Source of the DNA: an uncultured Candidatus Woesearchaeota archaeon
Lineage (GTDB): Archaea; Nanobdellota; Nanobdellia; Woesearchaeales; DSVV01
DNA length: 64,000 nt
Assembly (NCBI GenBank): GCA_963717515.1
Contig: OY970338.1
Location: forward strand, 1,236,861-1,300,860
Direction of reading: 5' to 3'
Below the pieces are notes generated by a model that was not told where the DNA came from, searched no databases, and worked only from the letters and a program-made list of their open reading frames with translations. Positions 967-35,126 of this stretch are shown piece after piece. Position 1 is the stretch's first letter. The number at the start of each line of letters is the position of its first letter. The position numbers were made by a program, and so were the translations under genes.

Positions 967-975
967 TTTGCTAAC

Positions 976-1431: not shown

Positions 1432-1441
1432 TTTTTACCGG

Positions 1442-2995: not shown

Positions 2996-3006
2996 TCTTT
3001 TGCCTC

Positions 3007-4851: not shown

Positions 4852-4863
4852 CTTGCTTTCTCC

Positions 4864-7992: not shown

Positions 7993-7993
7993 T

Positions 7994-8380: not shown

Positions 8381-8382
8381 CT

Positions 8383-9093: not shown

Positions 9094-9100
9094 CTGTCCA

Positions 9101-9361: not shown

Positions 9362-9362
9362 C

Positions 9363-21031: not shown

Positions 21032-23341
21032 CTATATCTTCTCCGCAACCCGCTCTTTTCCCACAAAGAACAGCAAGTACGCGAACATCTCGATCTCATC
21101 CATCTTATTGATCCAGAATCCATCTTCATCCTCAGACAGGACTCCGAGCGCCTTGAGCGCCATAACTGCATGACTGAAATCCCTGCCAGGATTTCTGCCG
21201 AACCGAGACAAATAATCCACTTTATATAATCTGAACCCATGGACGAGATTGTTGACTATGTATTTAACTTTTTCGAAGTCCTTTGAATAGCTTGTAGCAT
21301 AATTAACCATTGCAGCTTCATTTGTCGGGAATTTTTTCAGGAAAATATGCTTATTGGAACCTTTGTTCATTATCTTGTAATCCAGGGAATAGGGTATAAT
21401 TGGGTTGGCATAGTAACCCAGCCCGAATACAGCATGCTGGTCGGAGCTGTGATGAAAATATTTGTACCGGCAAGGAGGCCTATAATTCTTGTTGAAGAAC
21501 TGTGTCGGATGGATGAATCCTAGCGTTTCATGGGCTTGCGCCCTGAAGCCTGCTTCATCAGCAATCCTGAATATGTCCCTTGAGACTGATTCATGGAGCT
21601 TGAAATAGAATTCATTGAACTTTTCAAGCGATTTGTAATTCTTGGTTATGTATTCCATATCAGTCATGATGGGATAGATGAATATTGAGTCAGGCCCGAA
21701 AGCTGCCAATTTCCTGAATGAACGGATGAATGCATCTTTATTATCACCCTTTAAGCCCAGAACAAGATCTGCATTCTTGGTCTGGATGCCTGCAACTCCC
21801 ATATCGTGCAAGGCATTCTTGACTGAGTCTATGTCCTGCACTGACCTGTTGTTCAGCCTTAGGACTTCTTCTGAGAGCGACTGAACGCCGATTGAAACTT
21901 TGTTGAATCCGATCTCTTTTGCTGTGCTGAGCTTTTCCAACGATGAAGTGCCGGGGTTGAATTCAATCACTTTCTGTGAGCTCTTATGGAATGCGAACCT
22001 GGAGAACAATCTGCCGAACAACACCTTCATCTGCAGGACAGAGAGAAGCGAGGGTGTCCCTCCCCCTGCATAGAACGACCTGAATTCCACGCCTGAAAAT
22101 ACTTCCGAGTACTCGTCTATTTTCCTCATCAGGTACTTAACATATCTATCCATGCTCCTGCTGTCATAGCCTGTGGAGGGGTAAATACAATATGAGCACA
22201 TGCTTGTGCAGAAGGGTATGCTCAGATAGAAATCATACTGGATCTTGCCGTCATTGTTTTCCTGTATGAACTTTTTCCATGCATCCCTGACTTGCCCTTC
22301 GCTCAGCTCCCCTATGTCCTCTCTCAGGAACATATCATGGATTGTTTCGAAGCTGTTCCTGAAATCCACCTTTTCCTGGACATTTTTGTAAAATTCAAGC
22401 TCAGCCTGATACTGTTCCCTGTTTCTGTTCTCACCATATTTTGTTGATTTCGATACCGGCTTGAGCTCATCGAACCCGTACAGCTTCACGTATCCTTCAA
22501 ACAGCCCGCCGCAGACAGGGTCATATATGCAGTCCTTGCATGCTTCTCCCTTTATCTTGCCGTCCTCGACGTGCCTTACCCTGCTCCCGCTCTCGCGCTC
22601 AAGCTCCCATCGGCTGTCCTTGAGCAAAAGCTCACCGCAGCAGTCTTCATAACCTCTCAAAAAACACGGTGGGATAGAGCAGCCTGTGAATGAGAAGCCC
22701 ATGCCATTCTTCCTACAGTAGTCAAGTGCATTCCTGAGATAAGGGACTGCTTCTGATATCTTAGGGACTATCCATCTGTTCTTCCAGGCATTGCCCGCAG
22801 GCATGACAAATGAGAATGTGATATGCAGCTTTCCGAACTTGTTGTAGATGAACTTCACAAACTCAAGGATTTCCTTGTAGTTCTCCTTGTTTATCACAAA
22901 GCTTATGTCAGTCCGGATGCCCGTATCGACGAAACTGCTTATGGCTCTTGTGCTCTTATCAAACCCACCAGGCACCCTGGTCAGCCTGTCTGATACCTCT
23001 TTTTTATGGGAATGAAGAGATACAAGGACATTATCGATACCTGATTCTTTTACTTTTTCTGCAAAACCAGGGATGGATGCCACAAGCCCGTTTGTGCAGA
23101 GAGTTATCTTCGACGGTTTTCTTTGCCTGACCAACCTGGCAATCCGGAAAAGGTTTCTGCTGATGGTCGGTTCTCCGCCATCAATCACTACTTCTGTCCC
23201 TTTTTCAATAGAGCTGATGGTCTTTATCAGCATGCCAATAGAAGGGTCTGTCCTGTTGACATCCTCTCTGTCATAGGAACAGAACAGGCAGTTCTGGTTG
23301 CAGAGTTCAGTCAGGAACAATTGCTTTATTGATCTTTTCAA
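21032..23341 (-). CDS. Tandem double radical SAM protein: short 'CNQNCLFC' rSAM with C-terminal Cys module, fused to a HemN/HemZ-like rSAM
   Basis: Domain 1 has ELCNQNCLFCS, DGGEPT, IPPCFLRGYEDCC and CKDCIYDPVCGG. Domain 2 has IPFCTSMCSYCIYP and FYAGGGTPSLL, typical of oxygen-independent coproporphyrinogen-oxidase-like enzymes. Confidence 0.85.
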   Translation of the reverse strand: MKRSIKQLFLTELCNQNCLFCSYDREDVNRTDPSIGMLIKTISSIEKGTEVVIDGGEPTISRNLFRIARLVRQRKPSKITLCTNGLVASIPGFAEKVKESGIDNVLVSLHSHKKEVSDRLTRVPGGFDKSTRAISSFVDTGIRTDISFVINKENYKEILEFVKFIYNKFGKLHITFSFVMPAGNAWKNRWIVPKISEAVPYLRNALDYCRKNGMGFSFTGCSIPPCFLRGYEDCCGELLLKDSRWELERESGSRVRHVEDGKIKGEACKDCIYDPVCGGLFEGYVKLYGFDELKPVSKSTKYGENRNREQYQAELEFYKNVQEKVDFRNSFETIHDMFLREDIGELSEGQVRDAWKKFIQENNDGKIQYDFYLSIPFCTSMCSYCIYPSTGYDSRSMDRYVKYLMRKIDEYSEVFSGVEFRSFYAGGGTPSLLSVLQMKVLFGRLFSRFAFHKSSQKVIEFNPGTSSLEKLSTAKEIGFNKVSIGVQSLSEEVLRLNNRSVQDIDSVKNALHDMGVAGIQTKNADLVLGLKGDNKDAFIRSFRKLAAFGPDSIFIYPIMTDMEYITKNYKSLEKFNEFYFKLHESVSRDIFRIADEAGFRAQAHETLGFIHPTQFFNKNYRPPCRYKYFHHSSDQHAVFGLGYYANPIIPYSLDYKIMNKGSNKHIFLKKFPTNEAAMVNYATSYSKDFEKVKYIVNNLVHGFRLYKVDYLSRFGRNPGRDFSHAVMALKALGVLSEDEDGFWINKMDEIEMFAYLLFFVGKERVAEKI

Positions 23342-25150
23342 TTACATCACCGAGCTTGTCGAATACAGGATATATCTCTTTATGGCTGAACACTTCTGCA
23401 TAATTTTCCGGCACCCCGAAACATATCTTCTTGAGCGTGCAGACCGAACACGGCTCATAGAAATTGTTCTGGCGCACCCCGTCATGGCTCATGTTGTCGT
23501 CGAAATGGAGATATGAACTTTTTGTGTTCCTTACTATCTCCATGGATGGCGCGGAATATTCCTCGTATCCCCTGAGATAGCAGAGCGGCATCCTGTCGAC
23601 GACAGCCTTCAGCCTGTTGTTTTTAATGTATTCCAGTGCCCTGTAGACCCCTAGCTCTGAATCGCTCATCTTCACGAGTGGCTCCATGTTCTTTTTCGCC
23701 TGGTTCACAGGGTCTATGAAAATGAAGTTGAACATGCCCATGTCAGGATATCTCTTGTGCAGGAACCTTACATGCTCAAGAAGGTGCTTATGGTTGTATG
23801 AACATATGACTATGCCGAAACTGAGCTTCTCTCTTTTCCATGAATGTATGCTGTCCATCGCCTTCAATGCAAGGCCGTAATCCTTTGCAGAGCCTGTTAT
23901 GGTCTCATAGAGCTTCCTGTCTGATGCATGGAACGAGACGAGAAAGTCGATATCAAAGGCGTCAATGAGGCGCTTGAAAAAGCTCCTGCTCGACAGCAGG
24001 GTGCCGTTTGTCTGTAGGATAATCTTATGGATGCCTTTTTGTTTGCAGTAATTCAGAAATTTCGGCAGGTCTTTGTTGAGAGTAGGCTCTCCGCCTGTCA
24101 GGGTCAGATTCGTAGCACCTCTCATGATTGCGTAATCAAGCTTTTTTTTAGCTCGGAAAAAGGCATTGTCGTATTGTCGCAAGTAACAGAGCAAAATGCA
24201 CATTTCTGATTGCACCTGTTGTCTATCTGGAGGATGATATGGTCCTGCTTCTTGAGCCTGGGCACAAGCTCCTTGTCGCCGTGAATATTGATATAGTTCT
24301 GGTTCAGCCCGGGGCACCTGGGCTCAAGCTCGCATTCAGAGCACACGTCCGGCTTTGAATAATAGTTGGCCCTCCTGTTTATGCTCCCTTCCTCGAGCAG
24401 ACCTGTGAATGACGGCTCGTCGAATGCCTCTCTCCTGACCTCGCTGCAGTATTCCTCGAAGCCAGGCAGGAAACAGAGCGGGACAAACTCGATCCTGAAT
24501 CCCATGCCCCTGTCCAGGATGTACTGGAATGCCTCGAGCATATGGGGCTTTGCATCAGTGAGCCTTGGCACTATCCACTTGTTCTTCATGGCGTTATTCG
24601 TGGGGTCGACAAAATTATAGCTGAAATGCCTGATATGCGGAAAATTCTTTTCTGAAAATATCACCATGTCCTGAAGATCCCTGTAGTTCAGCGCATTGAT
24701 GACAGTCGTGAAATACGCATGGATCCTGTATTTCTCCACATTCTTCACACCTCTGCAGAACTGGTCAAAATCTCCGTCCCCCCGGGAAAGCTTTGGAAAT
24801 ATATCTTTTTTATTGGTATGATAGGAGATGTCGAACTTGTCAAGCCCTGACTTGATATATGCCTTAAGCAGTTTTTCATCATGGAGCCTGGAGGCATTTG
24901 TCTGCACAGAGACCTCTTCAAATCCCTGGGCCTTTGCATACCTGATGAGTTCTGGCAGGTCATCCCTGAGAGTGGGCTCTCCGCCTGTGAACATCACTTC
25001 TGTCACATCCTCTTTTTTGAGGTCGTCGATTGTCTTTTTTGCCTCTTCAAATGACAGCTCTGCATCCGAGTTCGGTGCTGAGCAGAACACGCAGTCCTGG
25101 TTGCACTTCCTGCTGACCTGCACAGTCCCAAGCACATGCCTTTTTTTCAT
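23307..25150 (-). CDS. Tandem double radical SAM protein interrupted by a -1 frameshift at an A8 run (track ORFs 24122..25150 and 23307..24317)
   Basis: Domain 1 has RKCNQDCVFCS, FTGGEPTL, VPLCFLPGFEEYC and CSECELEPRCPG. Domain 2 starts in the same frame (DNRCNQKCAFCS...MPFSELKK) and continues only in the -1 frame (KLDYAIMRGATNLTLTGGEPTL...MPLCYLRGYEEY...CSVCTLKKICFG). The Cys-motif to GGEPT spacing across the shift is 30 aa, against 32 aa in domain 1. Confidence 0.75.
24142..24149 (-). other. A8 homopolymer (T8 on the plus strand) at the frameshift point; A-AAA-AAA-type slippery run
   Basis: The minus strand reads gag cta aaa aaa agc ttg. Shifting -1 after the lysine codons gives aag ctt gat tac, which restores the second rSAM domain. 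Confidence 0.8.
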
Positions 25151-25659
25151 TTTATAACCTTGATCAGCTCCAGGAACTTATCCTGGGAAAATCGTTTCTC
25201 TCTGCTGTCCCGCCATCCTGTCACCAGCTTCTCAAGATTGAAGATCCCTTTCTCGAAAAGCTCAAACTCCCCGACAGCCCTCAGTGAGAATAATAGCTCT
25301 ACCCAAGGGGTTATGTCATCCTTTTCATACGAGAGGCTTTCGACAAAAAACCCCGCACTGAGTATGAAATCGTCGAAGATGTAATACATGTTCCCTATCA
25401 ATGAATAGAACAGGCCGATGGTCCTGTCAAGACCCGAATCTCCTGTCCTCTTCCTCTCGGTCAGGAGCATCCTGAGTATCTCCCGCGCCTCACCGATGGC
25501 CTTTTCAAGCTCATCGTTTTTCTGGAACCTGAGGCAGAGGTTGTAAGAGAATATCTCATCATGAGGCTCTCCAAGGCCATACGGGATGGGCCTTCTGTCT
25601 ATCGGAAACCCCAAAGTCCTTTCGAGTTCAGCAATCCTATCCGATATCATGTAGTCCAT
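25147..25659 (-). CDS. Hypothetical protein, predicted helical, embedded in the rSAM operon
   Basis: 170-aa ORF with 4-nt overlap to the downstream rSAM gene and a 1-nt gap to the upstream gene. No motif recognised. Confidence 0.5.
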   Translation of the reverse strand: MDYMISDRIAELERTLGFPIDRRPIPYGLGEPHDEIFSYNLCLRFQKNDELEKAIGEAREILRMLLTERKRTGDSGLDRTIGLFYSLIGNMYYIFDDFILSAGFFVESLSYEKDDITPWVELLFSLRAVGEFELFEKGIFNLEKLVTGWRDSREKRFSQDKFLELIKVIK

Positions 25660-25660
25660 C

Positions 25661-26626
25661 TTAATCGAAATCGAGCATGAACCAGCCTTCTTTTCTATCG
25701 ACCGTTTTTATGGTCCTGTTCCCCTTGCAGATCTTGAGCTTGCCGTCTTTTTCCAGTATCCTGTCGCCTTTCCTGACTAAGTCATAGAAACCGACAGTGT
25801 CTTCCGGCCTGGCAGGGTTGTCGATGTAGACGCTGTCCCTGTATCTTATCTCATCGCCTTTCATGTTCCCGTCGAACATCATGAAATTCCTCTCCCCGAA
25901 CACAAGAAGAGGCCTTTTTAGGAGCTCCCGGGTCTTTTTCACGAATCCCGGCTCGGCATCCATAATCCTGTTTTCGACATCAGCCGCATAGGCGATCGTA
26001 TTCTCGCACCTGTATGAACACGGTATGTGATGTATGTAGAAGAATGTCTTGTCCATCAGGAAATTGTTGCAGAGATATGAGCCTTTTGCCCCTTTTCCGT
26101 CATATTCTGTATTCTTGTACGTCTCATGCGGGTGGCTGTAGAGTCTCCAGTTGTTGTATCTCCTGAAGAAATCCACGCAGCAGTCCGGGAACCCGAGAAG
26201 CCTGCCGAACCTCAGATGGTCGACAAAGGGCTTGTTTATGCTCCGGTTGCCTATGACGACGGAATACCAGCCGAATTTTTTTGCCTTCAGCGCATCTTCC
26301 CTGGAATCTGATACGAACACATGGACCTCTCCTTCTTTCATCTTTTCATGGAACCGCTCCCCTACCTGGAAAGTGGTCGTGATATTCTCAGCACCGACAA
26401 TGCCTGCCTTGCCGGTCTTCGGTGTCCTGAATACAACATCTGTCTCGATAAAGAGCCCATAATCTTTGCAGATATTCCTGAACTCGTCAAAGACATTCAC
26501 GTCGATCCAGTCATCATAGCTTCTTTTCACTCCGAGCGCAGCAGCCACAAACATAGGGTACTGGTCTGAGTTCTTCAGCCTGACGTACTCTTTTGCGAAT
26601 TTTTTCGGTACATACTGCCCAATCAT
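25661..26626 (-). CDS. Conserved-looking hypothetical protein with GFPDCC and HHIPCSYRC motifs
   Basis: 321-aa ORF overlapping the upstream rSAM gene by 4 nt. The Cys pattern LLGFPDCCVDFF ... YIHHIPCSYRCENT recalls an archaeal DUF family, but I cannot name it with certainty. Confidence 0.55.
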   Translation of the reverse strand: MIGQYVPKKFAKEYVRLKNSDQYPMFVAAALGVKRSYDDWIDVNVFDEFRNICKDYGLFIETDVVFRTPKTGKAGIVGAENITTTFQVGERFHEKMKEGEVHVFVSDSREDALKAKKFGWYSVVIGNRSINKPFVDHLRFGRLLGFPDCCVDFFRRYNNWRLYSHPHETYKNTEYDGKGAKGSYLCNNFLMDKTFFYIHHIPCSYRCENTIAYAADVENRIMDAEPGFVKKTRELLKRPLLVFGERNFMMFDGNMKGDEIRYRDSVYIDNPARPEDTVGFYDLVRKGDRILEKDGKLKICKGNRTIKTVDRKEGWFMLDFD

Positions 26627-27516
26627 CTTTTCACAGCGACAAACTCGTCGCTTCCCCTCCTCTCCGGATACTCTTTCCAGGGCCCCTCGCAGACATTGTC
26701 ATATTTGCACTCTTTGCACTGGGGGAATTTCATCTTTCCCTCTGTCCTGCGGGTATTCTCAAAAGACGGGTCATAGGAGTTCACATCCCTTATCTCTGTC
26801 TCAGGCATGTAGAATTCAGAGCAGTATCTCTCATAGCCTTCCATCATGCAGAAAGGCATTGCCTCTGCCATCACCTTGACACCCGCATCTATGCCTATCT
26901 GCAGACCCTTTTTTATGTAGGGTGATGCAAGGCTCACCCATGGCATCATCTGGTCATAATTATCCATAGCATTGCCCACAGCATGCATGAAGGCGAACTG
27001 GTACTGGTCGACGCCGAGGTCCACGAGGAGCTTTGCGATTTCAGGGAGGTACCTGTAATTCGGCTTCACGACGACAGTGTTGGTTATTATGTACTGGTCC
27101 AGCTCCCTCAGGTTCCTTATCGCCCTGGTTGTCTGCAGGAATGAGCCTTGCCCGCGGGTCAGGTAATCATGAAGCTCTGGGATGTGGCCATGGAGCGCCG
27201 GGCCGAATTCATTGACGCCTGCCTTTATCAGTTCCCTGCAGTAGTCCCTGTACTGGAGCATGCGGACATTGCTCTGGAGCTGGATTCTATCGAATCCCAG
27301 GCATTTTGCATGCCTCACAAGGTCGAGGAGGTCGTCTCTTATGGTTACTTCCCCACCTGTGAATACCACTCCTGTGCAGCCGGTCTTTTTTGCATCTTCA
27401 AGATCTTTCTTTATGTCTCCTGTCTTCCTGTTGCCGAACCTCTTCTTGTGCGCCTGGACGCAGAACAGACAGTTGTTGTTGCATAGAAACCCAGTCTTAA
27501 TATCGACCCTTTTCAT
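26623..27516 (-). CDS. Radical SAM enzyme, short family with C-terminal Cys module (candidate HxsC-like partner)
   Basis: Contains GFLCNNNCLFCVQ, FTGGEVT, MPFCMMEGYERYC and CKECKYDNVCEGPW. It is the first gene of the minus-strand operon, divergent from the Hxs-like genes. Confidence 0.85.
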   Translation of the reverse strand: MKRVDIKTGFLCNNNCLFCVQAHKKRFGNRKTGDIKKDLEDAKKTGCTGVVFTGGEVTIRDDLLDLVRHAKCLGFDRIQLQSNVRMLQYRDYCRELIKAGVNEFGPALHGHIPELHDYLTRGQGSFLQTTRAIRNLRELDQYIITNTVVVKPNYRYLPEIAKLLVDLGVDQYQFAFMHAVGNAMDNYDQMMPWVSLASPYIKKGLQIGIDAGVKVMAEAMPFCMMEGYERYCSEFYMPETEIRDVNSYDPSFENTRRTEGKMKFPQCKECKYDNVCEGPWKEYPERRGSDEFVAVKR

Positions 27517-27667
27517 TGACTGGTGAATATCAGCATATCTTATAAAACTTTGGGATTAGATGTTTGTATTTCAAAAAGATTTAAATATTTCCCGTGATTT
27601 TACCATTTTCATGCCAGACGTGTCTATGCAGGGAAACCTGGAGATAAACAAGAAAGAGGGGTTTGTG
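27517..27667. promoter_or_regulatory. Divergent promoter region between the rSAM operon and the Hxs-like genes
   Basis: TTTAAATA at 27590-27597 faces the plus strand. TTTTATAAGATA on the minus strand (about 27537-27548) lies roughly 20-32 nt upstream of the minus-strand ATG at 27516. A GAGGGG SD-like motif precedes the ATG at 27668. Confidence 0.3.
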
Positions 27668-28129
27668 ATGGTCTCTGTGAATCCGAAGATATATCCGCTT
27701 GACGTCGTCCTCTCATCCTCATACATGTTCACTGACAAGAACTATGTCCTTGTTGACGGAGACCCGGAGGAGGAGCTGATTGTCGAGCTCAGGCCGAAAG
27801 ACAAAAATGCCGACATAGAGAAGCTCGGCAGGGACTTCAACAACGAGCTCATCAATTATGCTAATTATGCAGTACGGGCGATACAGAACCAGGGGATGCG
27901 GGAAGCCATAATCCACAGGGTGCTCATGACAAATTCAGCAGGCAGACCGGATTACAGGCAGCCTGTTGAAGAATATCCTGCTGCTGATGAAGAGCTCCTT
28001 GAAGTCGATGCAAAGCCTTGGATAAAATCAGACGAGAAATCAGAGGCCGACTCGCCATGGTTTGACGACCCTGAGGGGATCGCTGTTCCCTGGGAGGAGA
28101 AATATGGGGATAAAGGTAAGAAAAAATAA
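27668..28129 (+). CDS. HxsD-like small protein with acidic C-terminal tail (start uncertain; track ORF begins at 27560)
   Basis: MVSVNPKIYPLDVVLSSSYMFTDKNYVLVDG...GRDFNNELINYANYAVRA resembles the layout and the LLNDYxLRE-type motif I recall for HxsD. Alternative ATGs lie at 27560, 27611 and 27626. Confidence 0.45.
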   Translation: MVSVNPKIYPLDVVLSSSYMFTDKNYVLVDGDPEEELIVELRPKDKNADIEKLGRDFNNELINYANYAVRAIQNQGMREAIIHRVLMTNSAGRPDYRQPVEEYPAADEELLEVDAKPWIKSDEKSEADSPWFDDPEGIAVPWEEKYGDKGKKK

Positions 28130-28319
28130 TGTTCTTGTAAGGCTCAACGAGGAAATCTACTGCAGGGAATGCATTGAGCAGGCTATCAAGGATTTCAAGG
28201 ACGTATGCACAGTGACTGAGAATGAAGACGGCCTCCTGCTCAAGCCAAAGGCGAAGATCGAGCCTGTGAGGCTGGGTTATGAATTTTCCAATTATGTTCT
28301 AGGGCTCATGAAGAATTAG
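28104..28319 (+). CDS. Second HxsD-like small protein
   Basis: 71 aa from the ATG at 28104, preceded by GGAGGAG. It reads VLVRLNEEIYCRECIEQAIKDFKDVC...GYEFSNYVLGLMKN, with the same architecture as the upstream gene. Confidence 0.45.
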   Translation: MGIKVRKNNVLVRLNEEIYCRECIEQAIKDFKDVCTVTENEDGLLLKPKAKIEPVRLGYEFSNYVLGLMKN

Positions 28320-28324
28320 TGAAG

Positions 28325-29704
28325 ATGGCGATAAGTTATTTCGGGGACAAGGAGCAGTATGTACTGAACCATTACAGGTCGAGAGAGATCAAGGCAGGCC
28401 ATCTGGTGACCAATGACTACGGCTCTTGGGCGTTGCTTTCTCCTGATGAATACGCACAGCTCAGGACAGGGGACATCCAGGAGCCTCTTCTGACTCTTCT
28501 GAAGGATAAGGGGATTGTACTTGACAGGGGAAATTTTGCAAATGTCATCGATGATTACAGGAGGAAATGCGACTATCTCTTCATCGGCACTTCGCTCCAT
28601 ATTGTTGTCCCGACCCTGAGATGCAACTTGAAGTGCATTTACTGCCATGCAAGGGCCAAGAGCAGCAGGGCCAAGGGCTATGACATGGATGAAAAAACTG
28701 CGAAAAAAACCATTGATTTCATCTTCCAGAGCCCGACAGGATACATCACCATAGAATTCCAGGGGGGCGAGCCCCTGCTCAGGTTTGACCTCATCAAATA
28801 CATTATTGAATATGCAAAAGAGAAGAACAAGTCCCATAAGAAGGAGCTCCATTGGAGTGTGGTCACTAACCTTACCCATATGACTGATGAGATGTTTGAA
28901 TATTTCAAGAAGAACGGTGTCGGCATATGCACATCCCTTGACGGCCCTAAGGTTGTGCATGATGCAAACAGGCAGATGCATAGCAAGACCAGGAAATGGA
29001 TAAAGAAGATTGTTGATTCTTATACTATCAATGCAATGCTCCTTGCGACAAGGAACACACTGCCATACCCAAAGGAGATAGTTGATGAGTACATCAGCCT
29101 GGGCCTTCCGAGGATATGGATCAAGCCTGTGAACAACCTCGGCGATGCTGAGGGGAACTGGAAGAAGATCGGCATGACTGCAGCAGAATACCTTGATTTC
29201 TGGACAGAGGCGATGGATTATATCGTTACCAAGAACATCGAAGGGGTCCGGATTGAGGAAAATTATACCAAGATAATCCTGAGGAAGATACTGACAAAGG
29301 AATGCGTGAATTTCACAGACCTTGAAAGCCCATGCGGGGCTGCAATCGGCCAGCTCGCGTACAGCTACAACGGAAACATCCATACGTGCGATGAGGCAAG
29401 GCTGTTTGAGATGTTCAAGCTCGGGACAGTGGATGACAGATACAGCGATATAGTCACATCTCCAGGCGCATGTGCAATCACGAGGGCATCGATCAATGAC
29501 AATCCTGTGTGCGAGATGTGCGCCTACAAGCCTATATGCGGACTCTGCCCTGTGTGCAGTTATGCAGAGACAGGAAATATCATATCGAAGCTGCCGAACA
29601 GGCGCTGTGAGATACTTATCGGCATGTTCGACTACATATTTGAAAAGCTTGCTTCTGAAGAAAAATACAGGAAAGTTTTCTTCAGCTGGATAGGGAAAGA
29701 ATAA
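28325..29704 (+). CDS. Radical SAM/SPASM maturase (HxsB-like; anaerobic sulfatase maturase superfamily)
   Basis: About 90-aa N-terminal extension, then RCNLKCIYCHA and FQGGEPLL. The SPASM region is CGAAIGQLAYSYNGNIHTCDE ... CEMCAYKPICGLCPVCSY. The track ORF starts at GTG 28319, and the ATG is at 28325. Confidence 0.85.
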   Translation: MAISYFGDKEQYVLNHYRSREIKAGHLVTNDYGSWALLSPDEYAQLRTGDIQEPLLTLLKDKGIVLDRGNFANVIDDYRRKCDYLFIGTSLHIVVPTLRCNLKCIYCHARAKSSRAKGYDMDEKTAKKTIDFIFQSPTGYITIEFQGGEPLLRFDLIKYIIEYAKEKNKSHKKELHWSVVTNLTHMTDEMFEYFKKNGVGICTSLDGPKVVHDANRQMHSKTRKWIKKIVDSYTINAMLLATRNTLPYPKEIVDEYISLGLPRIWIKPVNNLGDAEGNWKKIGMTAAEYLDFWTEAMDYIVTKNIEGVRIEENYTKIILRKILTKECVNFTDLESPCGAAIGQLAYSYNGNIHTCDEARLFEMFKLGTVDDRYSDIVTSPGACAITRASINDNPVCEMCAYKPICGLCPVCSYAETGNIISKLPNRRCEILIGMFDYIFEKLASEEKYRKVFFSWIGKE

Positions 29705-29719
29705 TCCAATTCCAAAAAG

Positions 29720-29727
29720 TATAAATA
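29720..29727 (+). promoter_or_regulatory. TATA-box-like element upstream of the His-Xaa-Ser repeat gene
   Basis: TATAAATA lies 35-42 nt upstream of the ATG at 29762. This suggests the repeat gene has its own promoter and a very short 5' UTR. Confidence 0.3.
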
Positions 29728-29761
29728 TGGCTATGATTATAATATTGAAAAAAAGAGTAAA

Positions 29762-30661
29762 ATGCTGCCGATATTAAAAAAAAAGATAACAGGTTTCATA
29801 CTTAGTGAAGAGGGCAGGATGCCCAAGCAGTCTCTTCTTGCCATGGGCTCATTCCTTTCTGCAGCAGTCATCGGAGGTATTCTTGCGACAAGGGACAATG
29901 CTGCAAGCCATGTGAACAGCCTTGACATCAGGTATGGCACTTCCGAGGGATTAGGGGCTGAGGAGTCCAGGGGATATCATGACCATCATGCAAGCCACAG
30001 TTCACACGGTTCACATAGCAGTCATGGCTCGCATAGTTCACACGGTTCACACAGTTCCCATGGCAGCCATGGGAGTCATACAAGCCATAGCAGTCATGGT
30101 TCGCATAGTTCACACGGTTCACACAGTTCCCATGGCAGCCATGGGAGTCATACAAGCCATAGCAGTCATGGTTCGCATAGTTCACACGGTTCACACAGTT
30201 CCCATGGCAGCCATGGGAGTCATACAAGCCATAGCAGCCATGGTTCGCATAGCTCCCACTCAAGCCATGGTTCCCACAGCAGCCATAGTTCTCACAGCTC
30301 CCACTCAAGCCATGGTTCCCACAGCAGCCATAGTTCTCACAGCTCCCACTCAAGCCATGGTTCCCACAGCAGCCATAGTTCGCATAGCTCCCACTCAAGC
30401 CATGGTTCCCACAGCAGCCATGGTTCTCACAGTTCTCATGGAAGCCACAGCAGTCATGGTTCTCATAGTAGTCACGGGAGTCATACAAGCCATGGTTCTC
30501 ATAGTTCTCATGGCAGTCACTCAAGCCATGGAAGTCATAGCTCGCATGGGAGTCATGCGAGCGGTGGTGGTGGTGGTAGCGACGGCAGTTGTGGTACATC
30601 AGATGGCGATGCTGGCGGTGGCGGTGGCGATGGCGGTGCTAGTTGTGGTTGTGGATATTAG
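29762..30661 (+). CDS. His-Xaa-Ser repeat protein (HxsA-like): N-terminal hydrophobic segment, 64 HxS triplets, Gly/Asp/Cys tail
   Basis: - aa 1-75 contain SLLAMGSFLSAAVIGGILA.
- aa 76-267 are 64 consecutive H-[SGTA]-S triplets (29987-30562).
- The tail is GGGGGSDGSCGTSDGDAGGGGGDGGASCGCGY. Confidence 0.8.
   Translation: MLPILKKKITGFILSEEGRMPKQSLLAMGSFLSAAVIGGILATRDNAASHVNSLDIRYGTSEGLGAEESRGYHDHHASHSSHGSHSSHGSHSSHGSHSSHGSHGSHTSHSSHGSHSSHGSHSSHGSHGSHTSHSSHGSHSSHGSHSSHGSHGSHTSHSSHGSHSSHSSHGSHSSHSSHSSHSSHGSHSSHSSHSSHSSHGSHSSHSSHSSHSSHGSHSSHGSHSSHGSHSSHGSHSSHGSHTSHGSHSSHGSHSSHGSHSSHGSHASGGGGGSDGSCGTSDGDAGGGGGDGGASCGCGY
30041..30256 (+). repeat. 72-bp tandem repeat x3 inside the HxS gene
   Basis: The units 30041-30112 and 30113-30184 are identical. 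The third unit (30185-30256) differs only near its end. Each unit encodes 24 aa. Confidence 0.9.
30251..30430 (+). repeat. 45-bp tandem repeat x4 inside the HxS gene
   Basis: agctcccactcaagccatggttcccacagcagccatagttctcac occurs at 30251-30295 and again, identical, at 30296-30340. The units at 30341-30385 and 30386-30430 carry 1-3 substitutions. Each unit encodes 15 aa. Confidence 0.9.
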
Positions 30662-30761
30662 ATAATGAATTATAATTTTTTCAAAATTATTAGATTTACC
30701 ACTTTGTAGGGGTATTAATTTCGAAACATTTATAAATTATTAAATATTATTAGTAAAAATA

Positions 30762-33127: not shown

Positions 33128-34249
33128 ATGATCCAAAACTTGCCAAAACCAAAGAGTTTCACAATGCAGTGGCATATCACTAACAGGTGTAATTGGGCCT
33201 GCAGCCATTGCTATCAGGATGGAAATGCTATTGAAGAGCTGGAAATGGATAAGATTTATGACATCATGGACCAGTTTATCGGGCTTTTGAAGAGATGGGA
33301 TATACCAGAGAATCGGGCCAGGATAAACCTGACTGGCGGAGAGCCGTTGCTTCACAAAGGATTCTTTGATATAGCAGACCGACTTAAAAATAATTCGAAT
33401 TTTCTGAGATGGGGGGTGCTTTCGAATGGTTCCTTGTTGACTAAAAATATTGTCAAAAAATTGAAGGATGCAGATATATTCAGATATCAGATCAGTCTCG
33501 AAGGACTTGAAGAAACCAACGACCAGATCAGGGGCAAAGGGACATATAAAAGAGTGATAAAATCTATCAGATTACTGAAAGATGGCGGGGTCAATACTGT
33601 CGTCTCCCTTACACTTACAAAAAACAATGTTCATGAGATTCCTGAACTAGTCAAAGTCCTTGATAAACTGGGAGTCACGTATCTCGGAACAAGGAGACTT
33701 ATACCCATTGGAAGAGGTTCAAGCCTCGGACTGCTGGAGCCAAATGAATTAAAGAAATATTACCAGGAAACCATAAAAATTAATAAGGAATTGAGAGACA
33801 GACAAAGCAGGCTTAGGGTTGGGATTGGCTGTGAAAGCGGGATTTTCAATGAGAATACCAGACTGAATAATTATTGTGCAATTCTGGATGGTAGAATAAT
33901 CATAGTAATGCCGAATGGGGATGTGCTTCCCTGCAGGAGACTGCCTGTAGTCCTTGGCAATTTGAAAAATAAAAGCCTTTTTGAGATATATTATTCGTCT
34001 GAAGAGTTATGGAAAATGAGAAACCTGAACAACGCTCATGTATTCTGCAAATCATGCACTAATTTCAATCAATGTTTTGGAGGAGCAAAATGCGTGAATT
34101 ACTGTTATGCTAATAAATTGTCAGTTCCGGATGTGCAGTGCTGGAAGTATTTTGACAGGATAAAAAGTCTGGAACAATTCAACAAATATGTCGATAATAA
34201 TGAGAAAGAGGTTAAGCTTCATAAAATATTGGAAAATGCAAAACCATAA
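33128..34249 (+). CDS. Radical SAM/SPASM enzyme
   Basis: Contains HITNRCNWACSHCYQ and LTGGEPLL. The SPASM region is CAILDGRIIIVMPNGDVLPCRRL ... CKSCTNFNQCFGGAKCVNYC. The track start 33107 is TTG, and the ATG is at 33128. Confidence 0.85.
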   Translation: MIQNLPKPKSFTMQWHITNRCNWACSHCYQDGNAIEELEMDKIYDIMDQFIGLLKRWDIPENRARINLTGGEPLLHKGFFDIADRLKNNSNFLRWGVLSNGSLLTKNIVKKLKDADIFRYQISLEGLEETNDQIRGKGTYKRVIKSIRLLKDGGVNTVVSLTLTKNNVHEIPELVKVLDKLGVTYLGTRRLIPIGRGSSLGLLEPNELKKYYQETIKINKELRDRQSRLRVGIGCESGIFNENTRLNNYCAILDGRIIIVMPNGDVLPCRRLPVVLGNLKNKSLFEIYYSSEELWKMRNLNNAHVFCKSCTNFNQCFGGAKCVNYCYANKLSVPDVQCWKYFDRIKSLEQFNKYVDNNEKEVKLHKILENAKP

Positions 34250-35126
34250 ATTTCCAGGCAGGATAATCAATGCAAGCAAAAGACCCCGGGGTCAGGGGAT
34301 TGATTTATGCTTCCGATGCAATAACAGATGCATTTTCTGTTATGACAATCATAAGAGAAATGATATCTCTGACAAACCCTTGGAGCAAGCAAAAAAAGAT
34401 GTATTGGCCTTAAAGAAGAAAGGAATAAATATCATTTCTCTAAGAGGCAGTGAACCTACTATCTATCCTCATATCTATCAGCTTGTCAGCTTTATCAATA
34501 ATCATGGCCTGAAATTCAGGATGACGACGAATGCCCGGATATTTTCATATGTCGAGACAGCTAAAAAATTTGCATCATTAGGTCTTGATAATGTCTATGT
34601 TTCCCTGCATTCTCATAAGGCAGATATACATGACAAACTGACTCAGACAAAAGGCAGTTTCGATCAGACCTTAAAAGGAATTAAAAATTTGCTCGCTTCT
34701 GGTGTCAGAGTTGAGACCAATACAACGATTTTAAAGCAGAATGTGGAAGATCTACCAAAGATTACACAACTGTTGTCACGATATGGCTTGTTTAGGGCGA
34801 GGTTTTCTTTCCTTTTCTGTGAGGGTGTTGGCTTGGATATAGGGTGGTGGAAAAAACTAATGCCTTCCATTGCCGAGACCCGGGAAAGCCTGTCTGAAGC
34901 AATGAACATCTTTCAGGTGAGAGGCATATACTCTTTTATTGAGAAACTGCCAATATGCGGTGCACCACAATATTATCGTGATTTCAAGCCTGAGGATTAT
35001 GTAATTGCCGCAAACATCAAGCCGGAAATATGCCAAAAATGTGCTTATCACAAAGATAACTATTGTGTCGGAGTCAGTCCCATGTATCTGAAAATGTATG
35101 GGGAAAAAGACCTGATACCTCAATGA
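34236..35126 (+). CDS. Radical SAM enzyme, short family with C-terminal Cys module
   Basis: Contains CFRCNNRCIFCYD, LRGSEPT, TTNARIF, LPICGAPQYY and CQKCAYHKDNYCVG. The internal ATG at 34236 overlaps the upstream gene by 14 nt; the track start is 34188. Confidence 0.8.
   Translation: MQNHKFPGRIINASKRPRGQGIDLCFRCNNRCIFCYDNHKRNDISDKPLEQAKKDVLALKKKGINIISLRGSEPTIYPHIYQLVSFINNHGLKFRMTTNARIFSYVETAKKFASLGLDNVYVSLHSHKADIHDKLTQTKGSFDQTLKGIKNLLASGVRVETNTTILKQNVEDLPKITQLLSRYGLFRARFSFLFCEGVGLDIGWWKKLMPSIAETRESLSEAMNIFQVRGIYSFIEKLPICGAPQYYRDFKPEDYVIAANIKPEICQKCAYHKDNYCVGVSPMYLKMYGEKDLIPQ

What the first reader, a model, noticed from the sequence alone, without database searches (positions are those of the whole stretch)
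26623..30661. Archaeal His-Xaa-Ser (Hxs-like) maturation core arranged divergently from a large rSAM operon
**What the sequence shows**
- Four co-oriented plus-strand genes follow one promoter gap.
- The first two are small proteins with the same layout and F-N-N-E-L-I-N-Y / E-F-S-N-Y-V-L motifs, reminiscent of the LLNDYxLRE signature I recall for HxsD.
- The third is a 461-aa rSAM/SPASM enzyme with a roughly 90-aa N-terminal extension (HxsB-like).
- The fourth is a 299-aa protein made of 64 HxS triplets (HxsA-like).
- A short rSAM gene (candidate HxsC) is transcribed divergently from the same roughly 150-bp gap.

**Why it matters**
- To my knowledge the Hxs system exists only as a computational definition (TIGRFAMs TIGR03976-TIGR03979).
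- It is drawn mainly from bacteria, and neither its chemistry nor its function is known.
- I do not know of a described archaeal version with this repeat length, with duplicated HxsD-like genes, and wired to six further rSAM domains.

This is my best candidate for the novel system in the window.
Basis: partly seen in the sequence, partly recalled or inferred. Interest (0 to 1): 0.9.

Follow-up and report, generated by a model that had tools for sequence, protein, structure and literature searches.

The report
Archaeal His-Xaa-Ser protein maturation system
A tiny (DPANN) archaeon carries a divergent version of the His-Xaa-Ser radical-SAM system, recently shown in E. coli to block phage DNA entry; here it has a record 64-unit His-x-Ser target protein, two HxsD-like helpers, a dedicated prepilin-type peptidase and a battery of extra radical-SAM enzymes, and nobody has studied this version.

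Summary
**Observation:** it holds. The plus strand carries HxsD-like (27611-28129), HxsD-related (28104-28319), HxsB (28325-29704) and a 299-aa protein with exactly 64 uninterrupted HxS triplets (29762-30661). A short HxsC-like radical-SAM (rSAM) gene (26623-27516) runs divergently.

**Family calls:**
- HxsB, HxsD_rel and HxsA4 pass NCBIfam cut-offs. The HxsA4 pass comes from the repeats only.
- HxsD (45 vs 50 bits) and HxsC (87 vs 268; HxsC4 167 vs 500) do not.

**Host:** a Woesearchaeota-like DPANN archaeon.

- Hxs is no longer only computational. E. coli HXS is an antiphage system (Nat Commun 2026).
- The archaeal form is not unique. The D1-D2-B-A cassette recurs across DPANN archaea and CPR bacteria, and NCBI already names many HxsB there.

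**New here:**
- A divergent A24 prepilin-type peptidase (16126-17241) is a conserved partner, found in 48/83 loci.
- The HxsA leader looks prepilin-like.
- Six full-length HxsC-like domains lie in the window.
- 23307-25150 is one frameshifted double-rSAM gene.
- 64 repeats is the longest run seen in these samples.

**Verdict:** an uncharacterised variant of a known kind. Its chemistry and role are inferred, not shown.

The parts
16126..17241 (+). Divergent A24-family (type IV prepilin-like) membrane aspartyl peptidase, 371 aa. It is the proposed leader peptidase of HxsA.
   Evidence: - Pfam Arc_PepC scores 23.7 bits (cut-off 23.4). Peptidase_A24 scores 23.0 (cut-off 26.5).
- Homologues occur in 48/83 Hxs loci. 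In most archaeal loci they sit directly upstream of HxsD1 on the same strand.
- Both catalytic Asp residues are essentially invariant: D23 in 36/37 (the exception is truncated) and D91 in an AGD[AG]KL motif in 37/37.
19034..21031 (-). 665-aa B12-binding radical-SAM protein with a second, partial rSAM-like C-terminal domain. It is the last gene of the minus-strand operon.
   Evidence: Pfam B12-binding plus Radical_SAM in two stretches. The HxsC-like HMM gives a partial match at aa 523-659.
21032..23341 (-). 769-aa fusion of an N-terminal HxsC-like rSAM and a C-terminal HemN-like (class C methyltransferase-type) rSAM.
   Evidence: - NCBIfam HxsC 102 bits at aa 6-282; STM4012/HemN-like 153/118 bits at aa 345-739.
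- HxsC-like HMM 252 bits at aa 7-299.
23307..25150 (-). One gene for a 614-aa protein with two HxsC-like rSAM domains. In the window it is split into two overlapping ORFs by a 1-nt homopolymer deletion at 24150.
   Evidence: - L001, a short-read assembly of the same organism, has a single 614-aa gene.
- The only difference across the 11.7 kb shared with L001 is T9 versus T8.
- The two HxsC-like domains score 265 and 190 bits.
25147..25659 (-). 170-aa protein of unknown function inside the rSAM operon.
   Evidence: No hit in Pfam, NCBIfam, PADLOC or PHROGs. No homologue in the other Hxs loci beyond L001, a second assembly of the same organism.
25661..26626 (-). 321-aa DUF483-like protein of unknown function, with invariant CC...C...C. 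It overlaps the HxsC-like gene by 4 nt, which suggests translational coupling.
   Evidence: - Pfam DUF483 24.3 bits, just under the cut-off of 25.
- 80 homologues; all named ones are 'hypothetical', and nearly all of those are from Woesearchaeota.
- AF2 pLDDT 93.9, but no PDB fold match (best E 0.12).
- Homologues in 9 Hxs loci.
26623..27516 (-). 297-aa HxsC-like radical-SAM enzyme. It has CxxxCxxC plus a C-terminal 4-Cys motif and is transcribed divergently from HxsD1.
   Evidence: - Best NCBIfam hits are HxsC4 (166.9 bits) and HxsC (87.4 bits), both below cut-off.
- 23% identity to canonical Aeromonas HxsC, including the CxxCx5C motif.
- Invariant C12/C16/C19/C267/C270 in 60 homologues.
- 86% identical to the closest relative.
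27517..27610 (.). 94-bp divergent intergenic region with two AT-rich TATA-like boxes: TTATAAAA at 27540-27547 and TTTAAATATT at 27580-27589. Each lies about 25-30 nt from one of the two start codons.
   Evidence: Read directly from the sequence. Promoter function is inferred, not tested.
27611..28129 (+). HxsD1: an HxsD-like domain followed by an acidic tail that ends in a conserved DPEGIAVPWEEKYG motif.
   Evidence: - TIGR03976 scores 45.1 bits (cut-off 50).
- Precomputed Pfam PF27806:HxsD on the identical gene in L001.
- The tail motif is conserved in many DPANN homologues.
28104..28319 (+). HxsD2: a 71-aa HxsD-related protein that overlaps HxsD1 by 26 nt.
   Evidence: - NF038315 HxsD_rel scores 55.6 bits (cut-off 41).
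- The tandem D1-D2 pair is present in 23/42 archaeal and 7/31 bacterial loci.
28325..29704 (+). HxsB: an RRE-like N-terminal domain, an rSAM core and a SPASM-type C-terminal domain with 7 auxiliary Cys.
   Evidence: - TIGR03978 scores 433.7 bits (cut-off 370).
- Invariant Cys pattern.
- AF2 pLDDT 90.7, with a three-strand/three-helix N-terminal domain at aa 13-86.
- Best structural matches are CteB (5wgg) and anSME.
- 35% identity to canonical HxsB.
29762..30661 (+). HxsA, the precursor/target protein.
- Conserved leader plus hydrophobic segment: aa 1-48, window 29762-29905.
- Linker with HxNSL and HDHH motifs.
- 64 HxS triplets: window 29987-30562.
- Gly/Asp/Cys-rich tail ending CGCGY.
- TATA-like box at 29717-29728 upstream and an oligo-T run at 30674-30679 downstream.
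   Evidence: -.
- The leader is homologous to that of HxS proteins next to HxsB in 37 loci and to 72 representative clusters.
- NCBIfam HxsA4 scores 96 bits, on the repeats only. The HxsA3 N-terminal domain scores 40.4 bits (cut-off 65).
- Flanking signals were read.
34188..35126 (+). Additional full-length HxsC-like rSAM paralogue (312 aa). Possibly part of an extended locus.
   Evidence: HxsC-like HMM 240 bits over the full length. Pfam Radical_SAM. The link to Hxs is inferred only.
36226..37116 (+). Additional full-length HxsC-like rSAM paralogue (296 aa). Possibly part of an extended locus.
   Evidence: HxsC-like HMM 209 bits over the full length. Pfam Radical_SAM. The link to Hxs is inferred only.

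Best explanation
This is a DPANN-archaeal variant of the His-Xaa-Ser (Hxs) radical-SAM protein-maturation system.

**Proposed mechanism**
1. HxsA is made as a 299-aa pre-protein. Its first ~25 residues (MLPILKKKITG|FILSEEGRMPKQS|) form a conserved, basic, prepilin-like leader. A hydrophobic helix follows.
2. In the cytoplasm the leader is bound by the RRE-like N-terminal domain of HxsB and/or by HxsD1/HxsD2 (inferred).
3. HxsB, an rSAM/SPASM enzyme, then acts iteratively on the HxS triplets. HxsC-like rSAM paralogues and methyltransferase-type rSAM domains from the divergent operon add further steps. I expect an intramolecular covalent change on His/Ser, either a His-to-Ser-C-beta type crosslink or the +C/-4H change seen in E. 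coli (inferred).
4. The modified protein is inserted into or exported across the membrane through its hydrophobic segment. The leader is removed by the dedicated A24 peptidase encoded at 16126-17241 (inferred from synteny and leader shape).
5. The product is an extracellular or membrane-tethered chain of 64 modified HxS units with a Gly/Asp/Cys-rich tail.

**What is shown and what is inferred**
- Shown: gene content, homology, conserved synteny, conserved catalytic residues.
- Inferred: the chemistry, the order of steps, the cleavage site and the role.

**Role, my estimates**
- Envelope barrier against viruses, by analogy with E. coli HXS: about 0.35.
- Metal binding: about 0.25.
- Adhesion or another surface function: the rest.
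For: **Family calls**
- HxsB, HxsD_rel and HxsA4 pass NCBIfam cut-offs. HxsD and HxsC-like are the best but sub-threshold hits.

**Synteny**
- The cassette HxsD1-(HxsD2)-HxsB-HxsA recurs in 80 species-level genomes. HxsD1 lies upstream in 38/42 archaeal and 26/31 bacterial loci.
- HxS proteins sit directly downstream of HxsB.
- At least one HxsC-like rSAM lies within 9 kb in 22/31 archaeal and 21/23 bacterial loci. Fusions into double/triple rSAMs and to glycosyl- or methyltransferases are common.
- The A24 peptidase is found in 48/83 loci, usually immediately upstream of HxsD1, with both catalytic Asp conserved.

**Leader and enzymes**
- The leader consensus has Glu at +5 in 58/60, Gly at +7 in 60/60, and is followed by a hydrophobic stretch.
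- The HxsB model has an RRE-like three-strand/three-helix N-domain and matches the RRE-containing peptide maturase CteB over its full length.
- The HxsC-like enzyme is 86% identical to that of the nearest relative. L3 is 87%, HxsB 70% and HxsD1 58%. This indicates strong constraint.
- The divergent HxsC-like/HxsD1 pair is kept in the closest relative.

**Experimental precedent**
- In E. coli, HxsB/C/D are needed for N-terminal processing, a +8 Da modification in an HxS motif, and export of HxsA. HxsC binds HxsD (PMC13128918).
Against: - No experiment bears on this variant.
- HxsC membership fails the curated cut-offs (87 vs 268 bits; 167 vs 500). HxsD1 is just under its cut-off (45.1 vs 50).
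- The repeats contain no Arg or Lys, and there is no peptidoglycan-binding domain. The E. coli effector needs both. The E. coli mechanism therefore cannot be transferred directly.
- The A24 gene lies 10 kb from HxsA in this window and could be the cell's general prepilin peptidase.
- The hydrophobic segment is separated from the putative G|F site by a polar stretch, unlike true type IV pilins.
- PADLOC finds no defence genes nearby.
- The link between the minus-strand operon and HxsA rests on co-location alone.
Confidence: 0.72

Rival explanations
1. Same machinery, but the product works exactly like E. coli HXS. In this reading it is a surface or pseudo-periplasmic barrier that binds incoming viral DNA and blocks genome entry, making this an archaeal antiviral defence system.
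For: - It is the only experimentally shown function of the family (PMC13128918).
- HxsB is a bona fide family member.
- Repeat number is hypervariable, with about 3-4 units in the nearest relative against 64 here. That fits an arms race.
- Distant HxsB homologues occur on viral or prophage-like contigs and on conjugative plasmids next to restriction genes.
Against: - The E. coli effect needs basic residues in the repeats and a peptidoglycan-binding domain. Here the middle residue of each triplet is Ser, Gly, Thr or Ala only, and no such domain exists.
- DPANN archaea have no peptidoglycan or classical periplasm (my own knowledge).
- There is no defence-island context.
- The locus lies between a ribosomal operon and glycosylation/rSAM genes.
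Confidence: 0.3
2. The mature product is a metal-binding polymer (Ni, Zn or Cu) for capture, storage or buffering at the cell surface. The rSAM modifications would pre-organise the imidazoles.
For: - 67 His in 299 residues, spaced every third residue with small neighbours, plus a Cys-containing tail.
- Related precursors carry Cys-rich tails.
- His-derived crosslinks giving copper-binding peptides are known from RiPPs (PMC10206099 title/abstract).
Against: - No metal transporter or metalloenzyme was identified in the neighbourhood scans.
- Most family members have only 1-6 HxS units. That is few for a storage role.
- E. coli HxsA has a different demonstrated role.
Confidence: 0.2
3. Only HxsD1-HxsD2-HxsB-HxsA form the system. 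The divergent rSAM operon (19034-27516) and the other rSAM genes act on unrelated substrates (lipids, cofactors, glycans) and are neighbours because this genome region is simply rSAM-rich.
For: - The window holds at least 15 rSAM genes over 45 kb.
- The HxsC-like proteins fail the HxsC cut-offs.
- p321 and p170 are not general partners, appearing in 9 loci and in only L001 (the same organism).
- 9 of 31 archaeal loci with long flanks show no HxsC-like gene within 9 kb.
Against: - All 60 HxsC-like proteins sampled from Hxs loci have HxsC/HxsC4 among their matches.
- The window's own 297-aa enzyme has HxsC4 and HxsC as its two best NCBIfam hits.
- HxsC-like genes occur in 43 of 54 loci with long flanks. 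They are often immediately after HxsA and in the same orientation.
- The divergent HxsC-like/HxsD1 pair is conserved in the closest relative.
- E. coli HxsC binds HxsD.
Confidence: 0.2
4. The HxS ORF is not a real gene. On this view it is a coding-looking tandem DNA repeat or a long-read assembly artefact.
For: - All three frames and the antisense strand are open across the repeat.
- The exact product is absent from the 15-billion-protein collection, although its neighbours are present.
- The short-read contig breaks inside the repeat.
Against: - Only the HxS frame continues from a conserved leader that is shared with 37 loci and 72 representative clusters.
- The position directly after HxsB is conserved.
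- 29 different 9-nt units all encode HxS, which shows selection on the protein.
- The frame is kept through 192 codons into a family-typical tail ending in Tyr.
Confidence: 0.03

Closest known systems
HXS antiphage system of E. coli and other Pseudomonadota (HxsD-HxsB-HxsC-HxsA; Li et al., Nat Commun 2026, PMC13128918)
   Same: - It has HxsB (35% identity, passes TIGR03978), an HxsD-type small protein and an HxsC-related rSAM with the same C-terminal Cys motif.
- Its target protein has an N-terminal export signal and tandem HxS triplets.
- N-terminal processing plus export is expected in both.
   Different: - The host is archaeal.
- Gene order is D1-D2-B-A with the HxsC-like gene divergent, instead of D-B-C-A.
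- There are two HxsD-type genes.
- The HxsC-like enzyme lacks the ~100-aa N-terminus and fails the HMM cut-off.
- There are 64 non-basic repeats instead of 5-6 Arg-rich ones.
- There is no peptidoglycan-binding domain.
- The leader is long and prepilin-like, with a linked A24 peptidase.
- Five more full-length HxsC-like domains are present, plus B12- and HemN-type rSAM domains.
NCBIfam/TIGRFAMs computational definitions (TIGR03976-03979; later HxsA3 NF038309, HxsA4 NF038313, HxsC4 NF038332, HxsD_rel NF038315)
   Same: HxsB, HxsD_rel and HxsA4 models are passed. The leader aligns end-to-end with the HxsA3 N-terminal domain model (positions 2-79 of 81).
   Different: - The HxsA4 score comes from the repeat part only (profile positions 51-92).
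- HxsA3 (40 vs 65), HxsD (45 vs 50), HxsC (87 vs 268) and HxsC4 (167 vs 500) are below cut-off.
- The locus therefore sits between the existing models.
Triceptide (three-residue cyclophane) synthases such as HaaB, HtkB and YhhB (rSAM/SPASM; PMC11499958)
   Same: - Both involve an rSAM/SPASM enzyme acting on an aromatic-X-X three-residue motif, often repeated.
- His-C2 to X3-C-beta crosslinks on HAA, HNR and HTK motifs are a direct chemical precedent for H-x-S.
   Different: - HxsB is not a member: YhhB scores 68 vs 445 bits and GrrM 64 vs 310.
- The only measured Hxs modification is +8 Da, not -2 Da.
- The substrate here is a 299-aa exported protein rather than a short peptide.
SCIFF/sactipeptide-type maturase CteB and anaerobic sulfatase maturase anSME (solved SPASM enzymes)
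   Same: They are the best sequence and fold matches. CteB shares the N-terminal RRE, rSAM and SPASM layout over its full length.
   Different: Identity is about 20%. The substrates and chemistry differ (thioether, formylglycine).
Type IV pilin/archaellin class III signal peptides and their A24 peptidases (PilD, PibD, FlaK, EppA)
   Same: - The N-terminus is basic, with a small residue before F/Y, Glu at +5 and a following hydrophobic helix.
- The linked membrane peptidase has the two A24 catalytic Asp residues and the archaeal A24 C-terminal domain.
   Different: - The peptidase is only at or near the Pfam thresholds and gets no NCBIfam name.
- A polar 8-10-aa insert separates the putative cleavage site from the hydrophobic segment.
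- No pilus assembly genes were identified nearby.
- Cleavage has not been shown.

Membership tests
His-Xaa-Ser (Hxs/HXS) system | HxsB: rSAM/SPASM maturase scoring at or above the TIGR03978 cut-off (370 bits) | tested here: met
   433.7 bits, covering aa 18-458. The CxxxCxxC motif and 7 further invariant Cys are present.
His-Xaa-Ser (Hxs/HXS) system | HxsC: second rSAM enzyme scoring at or above TIGR03977 (267.9 bits) or HxsC4 NF038332 (500 bits) | tested here: not met
   - The 297-aa enzyme scores 87.4 and 166.9 bits.
- The 342-aa ORF scores 105.7 bits and the 769-aa N-domain 102.4 bits.
- For the 297-aa enzyme these are the two best NCBIfam hits. It has 23% identity to canonical HxsC.
His-Xaa-Ser (Hxs/HXS) system | HxsD: small protein matching TIGR03976 (50 bits) or HxsD_rel NF038315 (41 bits) | tested here: met
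   - HxsD2 scores 55.6 bits on NF038315.
- HxsD1 scores 45.1 bits on TIGR03976, just under the cut-off, but has a precomputed Pfam PF27806:HxsD hit.
His-Xaa-Ser (Hxs/HXS) system | HxsA: protein with an N-terminal signal and tandem His-Xaa-Ser repeats, encoded next to HxsB | tested here: met
   - 64 HxS triplets, 57 nt downstream of HxsB.
- HxsA4 scores 96 bits against a cut-off of 55, from the repeats only.
- TIGR03979 gave no hit.
His-Xaa-Ser (Hxs/HXS) system | Canonical effector features used in E. coli: a peptidoglycan-binding domain and basic residues within the repeats | tested here: not met
   - No Pfam domain was found in HxsA.
- The middle residue of the triplets is Ser in 32, Gly in 26, Thr in 4 and Ala in 2, with no Arg or Lys.
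- For comparison, Aeromonas HxsA reads HRSHRSHSSHRS... and carries a C-terminal domain.
His-Xaa-Ser (Hxs/HXS) system | Gene order HxsD-HxsB-HxsC-HxsA (99.6% of canonical systems) | tested here: not met
   The order here is HxsC-like(-) | HxsD1-HxsD2-HxsB-HxsA(+). The canonical order is seen in L084.
His-Xaa-Ser (Hxs/HXS) system | Protection against phage or virus by blocking DNA entry; rSAM-dependent +8 Da modification of an HxS motif | not testable with these tools
   Known only for E. coli (PMC13128918).
Triceptide / three-residue cyclophane RiPPs | Substrate with aromatic-X-X motifs | tested here: met
   H-x-S repeated 64 times. HAA, HNR and HTK precedents are in PMC11499958.
Triceptide / three-residue cyclophane RiPPs | Maturase belonging to a 3-CyFE family (for example the YhhB or GrrM/OscB models) | tested here: not met
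   YhhB scores 68.5 vs 445 bits. GrrM/OscB scores 63.6 vs 310 bits.
Triceptide / three-residue cyclophane RiPPs | Aromatic-to-C-beta crosslink (-2 Da per motif) | not testable with these tools
   Needs mass spectrometry or NMR on the matured protein.
Peptidase A24 (prepilin/preflagellin peptidases) | Polytopic membrane protein with two catalytic Asp, the second in a GxGD-type motif; Pfam PF01478 at or above 26.5 bits | tested here: inconclusive
   - PF01478 scores 23.0 bits, below the cut-off.
- PF06819 (Arc_PepC) scores 23.7 bits, above its 23.4 cut-off.
- D23 and D91 (AGDAKL) are invariant in 37 homologues.
- A homologue aligns weakly but over its full length to EppA.

The most novel reading that the evidence does not exclude
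DPANN archaea and CPR bacteria, the ultra-small episymbionts, share a distinct pilin-like branch of the Hxs system. In it an A24 peptidase, two HxsD-type chaperones, HxsB and arrays of HxsC-like rSAMs would turn an exported protein into a long rod of consecutive three-residue His-Ser macrocycles, 64 in a row here.

That would be a protein-sized, ribosomally made, covalently laddered polymer displayed on the cell surface. Its use would be host attachment, metal capture or envelope armour, rather than the DNA-binding mechanism proposed for E. coli.
Probability: 0.2. Interest if true: 0.8.

Novelty: new variant of a known kind. Interest (0 to 1): 0.55.

Why it matters
**Chemistry.** The chemistry of the Hxs modification (+8 Da in E. 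coli) is still unsolved, and the E. coli system has resisted reconstitution.
- A natural substrate with 64 identical target motifs would multiply any mass change 64-fold: about -129 Da for crosslinks, about +510 Da for the E. coli-type change.
- The 85-aa orthologue from the sister genome offers a minimal substrate.

**Distribution.** The locus shows that Hxs is not essentially proteobacterial, as the 2026 study concluded from HxsA homology.
- A large, differently built branch exists in DPANN archaea and CPR bacteria.
- That branch has its own leader type, a dedicated prepilin-type peptidase and multiplied HxsC-like enzymes.

**Function.** If the antiviral role holds, this would be an envelope-level defence in archaea that lack peptidoglycan. 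If it does not, the family has a second, unknown function.

Tried and rejected
- **PADLOC** on the ten locus proteins gave only weak viperin-like rSAM hits. HXS is not in that 2023 library.
- **PHROGs** found nothing.
- **p321:** the PDB sequence search found nothing. The fold search with a confident model also found nothing significant, so I could not assign it a function.
- **Naming the organism:** exact look-ups returned no names or accessions. The genome-contig scan did not contain the window's own genome. Taxonomy therefore rests on ribosomal-protein homologues.
- **Haft & Basu 2011** (PMC3133131) is not held, so the original definition is cited only through NCBIfam and PMC13128918.
- **Viral contigs:** only distant (38% or less) HxsB relatives, not this branch.
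- **Transglutaminase-like gene at 30762** as leader protease: considered and dropped. It has no homologue in any other Hxs locus, and GC content changes there.
- **Signal-peptidase-I-type cleavage (AxA)** after the hydrophobic segment: considered first, and it remains possible. The conserved A24 partner makes prepilin-type processing the better-supported reading.
- **Second precursor:** no second HxsA or HxsD gene is present in the window.

Full report

Yes. ORF listing shows the following genes:
- a 297-aa rSAM gene on the minus strand (26623-27516);
- a 189-aa ORF on the plus strand (the gene caller's start gives 172 aa, 27611-28129);
- an overlapping 85-aa ORF (71 aa from ATG 28104, ending 28319);
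- a 461-aa ORF (459 aa from ATG 28325, ending 29704);
- a 299-aa ORF (29762-30661).

The last protein contains exactly 64 uninterrupted, in-register H-x-S triplets at residues 76-267.
- The middle residue is Ser in 32, Gly in 26, Thr in 4 and Ala in 2. There is no Arg or Lys.
- At the DNA level there are 29 different 9-nt units, all encoding HxS. They are organised into recent 72-nt and 45-nt super-repeats of 94-97% identity.
- This means old selection on the peptide motif plus recent expansion.

Two corrections apply.
- The divergent gap is 94 bp with the called start (148 bp with a later ATG).
- ORFs 23307-24317 and 24122-25150 are one gene. A short-read assembly of the same organism (L001) is identical over the 11.7 kb it shares with the window except for one extra T in a T-run at 24150, and it encodes a single 614-aa protein with two rSAM domains.

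**2. Host and setting**

- The window begins with an archaeal ribosomal-protein operon that includes L32e and S4e.
- Ribosomal protein L3 is closest (about 60%) to proteins named Candidatus Woesearchaeota/Nanoarchaeota.
- The source is a 1.84-Mb contig. So the host is a DPANN archaeon.
- From 19 kb onward the window is unusually rich in radical-SAM genes, with at least 15.
- GC content drops after 30.7 kb.
- No known defence genes were found around the locus.

**3. Family assignment**

| Protein | Model | Score (bits) | Cut-off | Result |
|---|---|---|---|---|
| HxsB | TIGR03978 | 433.7 | 370 | pass |
| second small protein | HxsD_rel NF038315 | 55.6 | 41 | pass |
| first small protein | HxsD TIGR03976 | 45.1 | 50 | just below |
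| repeat protein | HxsA4 | 96 | 55 | pass, repeats only |
| repeat protein N-terminus | HxsA3 N-terminal model | 40.4 | 65 | below |
| divergent 297-aa rSAM | HxsC4 | 166.9 | 500 | far below |
| divergent 297-aa rSAM | HxsC | 87.4 | 267.9 | far below |

- The first small protein has a precomputed Pfam HxsD hit in L001.
- The repeat protein's N-terminus aligns end-to-end with the HxsA3 N-terminal model.
- HxsC4 and HxsC are the best hits of the 297-aa rSAM despite the low scores.

Comparison with a canonical system (Aeromonas plasmid, hxsD-B-C-A):
- HxsB is 35% identical over 99% of its length.
- The 297-aa enzyme is 23% identical to HxsC, including the C-terminal CxxCx5C motif, but it lacks HxsC's ~100-aa N-terminus.

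HxsB structure:
- Its model (pLDDT 90.7) has a three-strand/three-helix N-terminal domain, which is the RRE topology.
- It then has an rSAM core and a SPASM-type end.
- It matches CteB and anSME best.

**4. What related genomes show**

HxsB relatives are abundant: 4866 at E <= 1e-20. Many are already named HxsB in Woesearchaeota and Nanoarchaeota by NCBI.

A scan of species-representative genomes returned 80 loci from DPANN archaea, CPR/Patescibacteria, Omnitrophota, Elusimicrobiota and others. Mapping the window's proteins onto them gave these figures:

| Feature | Archaeal loci | Bacterial loci |
|---|---|---|
| HxsD1 upstream of HxsB | 38/42 | 26/31 |
| Second HxsD-like gene | 23/42 | 7/31 |
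| At least one HxsC-like rSAM within 9 kb | 22/31 | 21/23 |
| At least three HxsC-like rSAMs within 9 kb | 7/31 | 12/23 |

- A protein with the same leader and/or an HxS run usually follows HxsB directly.
- HxsC-like genes are often fused into double or triple rSAM proteins, or to glycosyl- and methyltransferases.
- All 60 sampled HxsC-like proteins hit the HxsC model, and none approaches the HxsC4 cut-off. They share CxxxCxxC plus four further Cys. They form an unmodelled HxsC-like subfamily.
- The window itself has six full-length HxsC-like domains: 26623, 24122, 23307, the N-terminus of 21032, 34188 and 36226.

**5.

The 371-aa membrane protein at 16126-17241 has homologues in 48 of 83 loci.
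- In most archaeal loci it is the gene immediately upstream of HxsD1 on the same strand.
- It is a divergent A24 (prepilin/preflagellin-type) peptidase. Arc_PepC scores 23.7 bits (pass) and Peptidase_A24 23.0 bits (just below).
- A homologue aligns over its full length, though weakly, to EppA.
- Both catalytic aspartates are essentially invariant in 37 sequences: SYxDIKxGKIRN (D23, 36/37) and WxAGD[AG]KLF (D91, 37/37).
- In the window and in its relatives L002/L003 the gene is displaced by the inverted rSAM operon but keeps its relative position.

**6. Anatomy of HxsA**

The leader family comprises 72 representative clusters at E <= 1e-3. Its consensus is KIKKKIS[SA]|FLLSEEGKISKQS|LLxLGAFLGAAAIGSVLA...AAA.
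- Glu is at +5 in 58/60, Gly at +7 in 60/60 and Lys at +11 in 58/60.
- From my own knowledge of type IV pilin and class III signal peptides, it reads like a prepilin-type signal with an extra polar insert: basic N-terminus, a small residue, then F, Glu at +5, then a hydrophobic helix.

After the hydrophobic segment come three further elements:
- a conserved HxNS[LM]x[LIV]x[YF] motif;
- a [TS]HxHHxSH motif that starts the HxS run;
- a short end, usually closing with an aromatic residue.

Most members are about 60-190 aa.
- The 74 representative leader-bearing proteins retrieved have 0-6 HxS units.
- Archaeal species representatives have 4-18 units and bacterial ones up to 38-51.
- The closest relative genome (HxsB 70%) has an 85-aa HxsA ending ...HDHHASHSSHGNHASY.

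So 64 units is an extreme, recent expansion. Short-read assemblies under-report long arrays, and the short-read contig of this very organism breaks inside the repeat.

**7. How it most likely works**

Shown:
- gene content, homology, synteny and conserved catalytic residues;
- strong constraint on the HxsC-like enzyme, which is 86% identical to the nearest relative, against L3 at 87%, HxsB at 70% and HxsD1 at 58%;
- conservation of the divergent HxsC-like/HxsD1 pair.

Inferred:
- The leader is bound by the RRE-like domain of HxsB and/or by HxsD1/D2. HxsD1 carries a conserved acidic tail ending DPEGIAVPWEEKYG, a likely docking motif.
- HxsB and the HxsC-like enzymes modify the HxS triplets in the cytoplasm.
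- The protein is exported through its hydrophobic segment.
- The A24 peptidase removes the leader.

The E. coli work supports the outline. HxsB, HxsC and HxsD are all needed for N-terminal processing, for a +8 Da (+C/-4H) change in an SHRSS motif and for export, and HxsC binds HxsD.

For the chemistry there are two leads.
- The first is the triceptide precedent of His-C2 to X3-C-beta crosslinks on H-x-x motifs.
- The second is the presence here of methyltransferase-type rSAM domains (B12-type, HemN-type). These could supply the extra carbon implied by +C/-4H.

TATA-like boxes lie about 25-30 nt before both divergent start codons and upstream of hxsA. An oligo-T run follows hxsA. These are read from sequence, not tested.

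**8. Function**

- The only demonstrated role of the family is blocking phage DNA entry.
- That mechanism was tied to Arg-rich repeats and a peptidoglycan-binding domain, and both are absent here.
- I therefore give the antiviral reading about 0.3-0.35, metal binding about 0.2-0.25, and other surface roles the remainder.

**9. Novelty**

- The kind is known. It was defined computationally in 2011 and shown experimentally in 2026.
- NCBI's models already touch this branch.
- The branch itself is not described in any paper I could find. It is archaeal/CPR, with a D1-D2-B-A order, a prepilin-like leader, an A24 peptidase and HxsC-like arrays. It has no PG domain and its repeats are non-basic.
- The 2026 paper reports Hxs as 99.7% proteobacterial.
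- I rate it a new variant of a known kind, of moderate interest.

**10. Dead ends**

- PADLOC and PHROGs gave nothing useful.
- p321 has a confident model but no PDB analogue.
- The organism could not be named.
- Viral contigs hold only distant HxsB relatives.

Noticed in passing
window 24150 (within 23307-25150, minus strand): A T8 run in the window versus T9 in the short-read assembly of the same organism splits a 614-aa double-rSAM gene into two overlapping ORFs. This is probably a homopolymer error of the long-read assembly, or else a real frameshift polymorphism.
   Followed up: yes
window 25661-26626 (-): A 321-aa DUF483-like protein family with 80 homologues (all named ones 'hypothetical', nearly all of those Woesearchaeota). 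It has an invariant CC...C...C pattern and a very confident AF2 model (pLDDT 93.9). No PDB fold match was found (best E 0.12), so it may be a new fold, and its function is unknown.
   Followed up: partly
window 19034-63139: Extreme density of radical-SAM genes, at least 15. They include several B12-binding ones (19034, 37782, 47407, 50327, 58070), SPASM types (33107, 54787), a nitroreductase-rSAM fusion (40893-41858) and a MiaB-like gene (61730).
   Followed up: partly
window 30762-31838 (+) and onward: Directly after hxsA lies a 358-aa protein with an N-terminal hydrophobic segment followed by Cys, and a weak transglutaminase-core match (22.3 bits, cut-off 23). GC content falls from about 0.47 to about 0.36 here. 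The protein is not found in any other Hxs locus.
   Followed up: partly
window 11717-11817 (+): A tRNA gene of about 100 nt (Rfam 57 bits) for which ARAGORN could not call the anticodon. It probably contains an intron.
   Followed up: no
window 1-11359 (-): The ribosomal-protein operon has very strong strand composition skew (AT skew down to -0.40). The ORFs also look long for their families: the L22 ORF is 281 aa, L4 335 aa and S3 270 aa.
   Followed up: no
window 29762-30661 (+): The exact HxsA product, and three alternative ORFs over the repeat, are absent from the 15-billion-protein collection, although neighbouring genes of the same contig are present. The gene was apparently not called in public annotation.
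   Followed up: partly
L002/L003 13581-16307; L010 12094-14790 and 15020-18529; L013 12426-14120: In related Hxs loci the HxsC-like rSAM domain is fused to other domains: glycosyltransferases (GT28-rSAM-GT2), DUF362 plus ferredoxin, or a SAM methyltransferase. This hints at glycosylation or methylation steps in this branch.
   Followed up: partly
P0364, P0357, P0370 (representative-library hits): Some proteins carry the same leader but have large inserted regions before a conserved ...FHFNG[IV]xFSY...HHHHxSHNSY end instead of an HxS array. By eye, one 328-aa member looks Hint/intein-like. This was not tested.
   Followed up: no
L087-L109 (IMG/VR contigs): About 23 viral or prophage-like contigs encode full-length HxsB relatives (30-38% identity to the window's HxsB). 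Given that identity level I assume they are closer to canonical bacterial HxsB, but this was not compared.
   Followed up: no
window 27980-28129 (C-terminus of HxsD1): An acidic tail with Trp-containing motifs ends in DPEGIAVPWEEKYG. It is conserved across many DPANN HxsD1 proteins but absent from the 96-aa canonical HxsD. It is likely a docking motif.
   Followed up: partly
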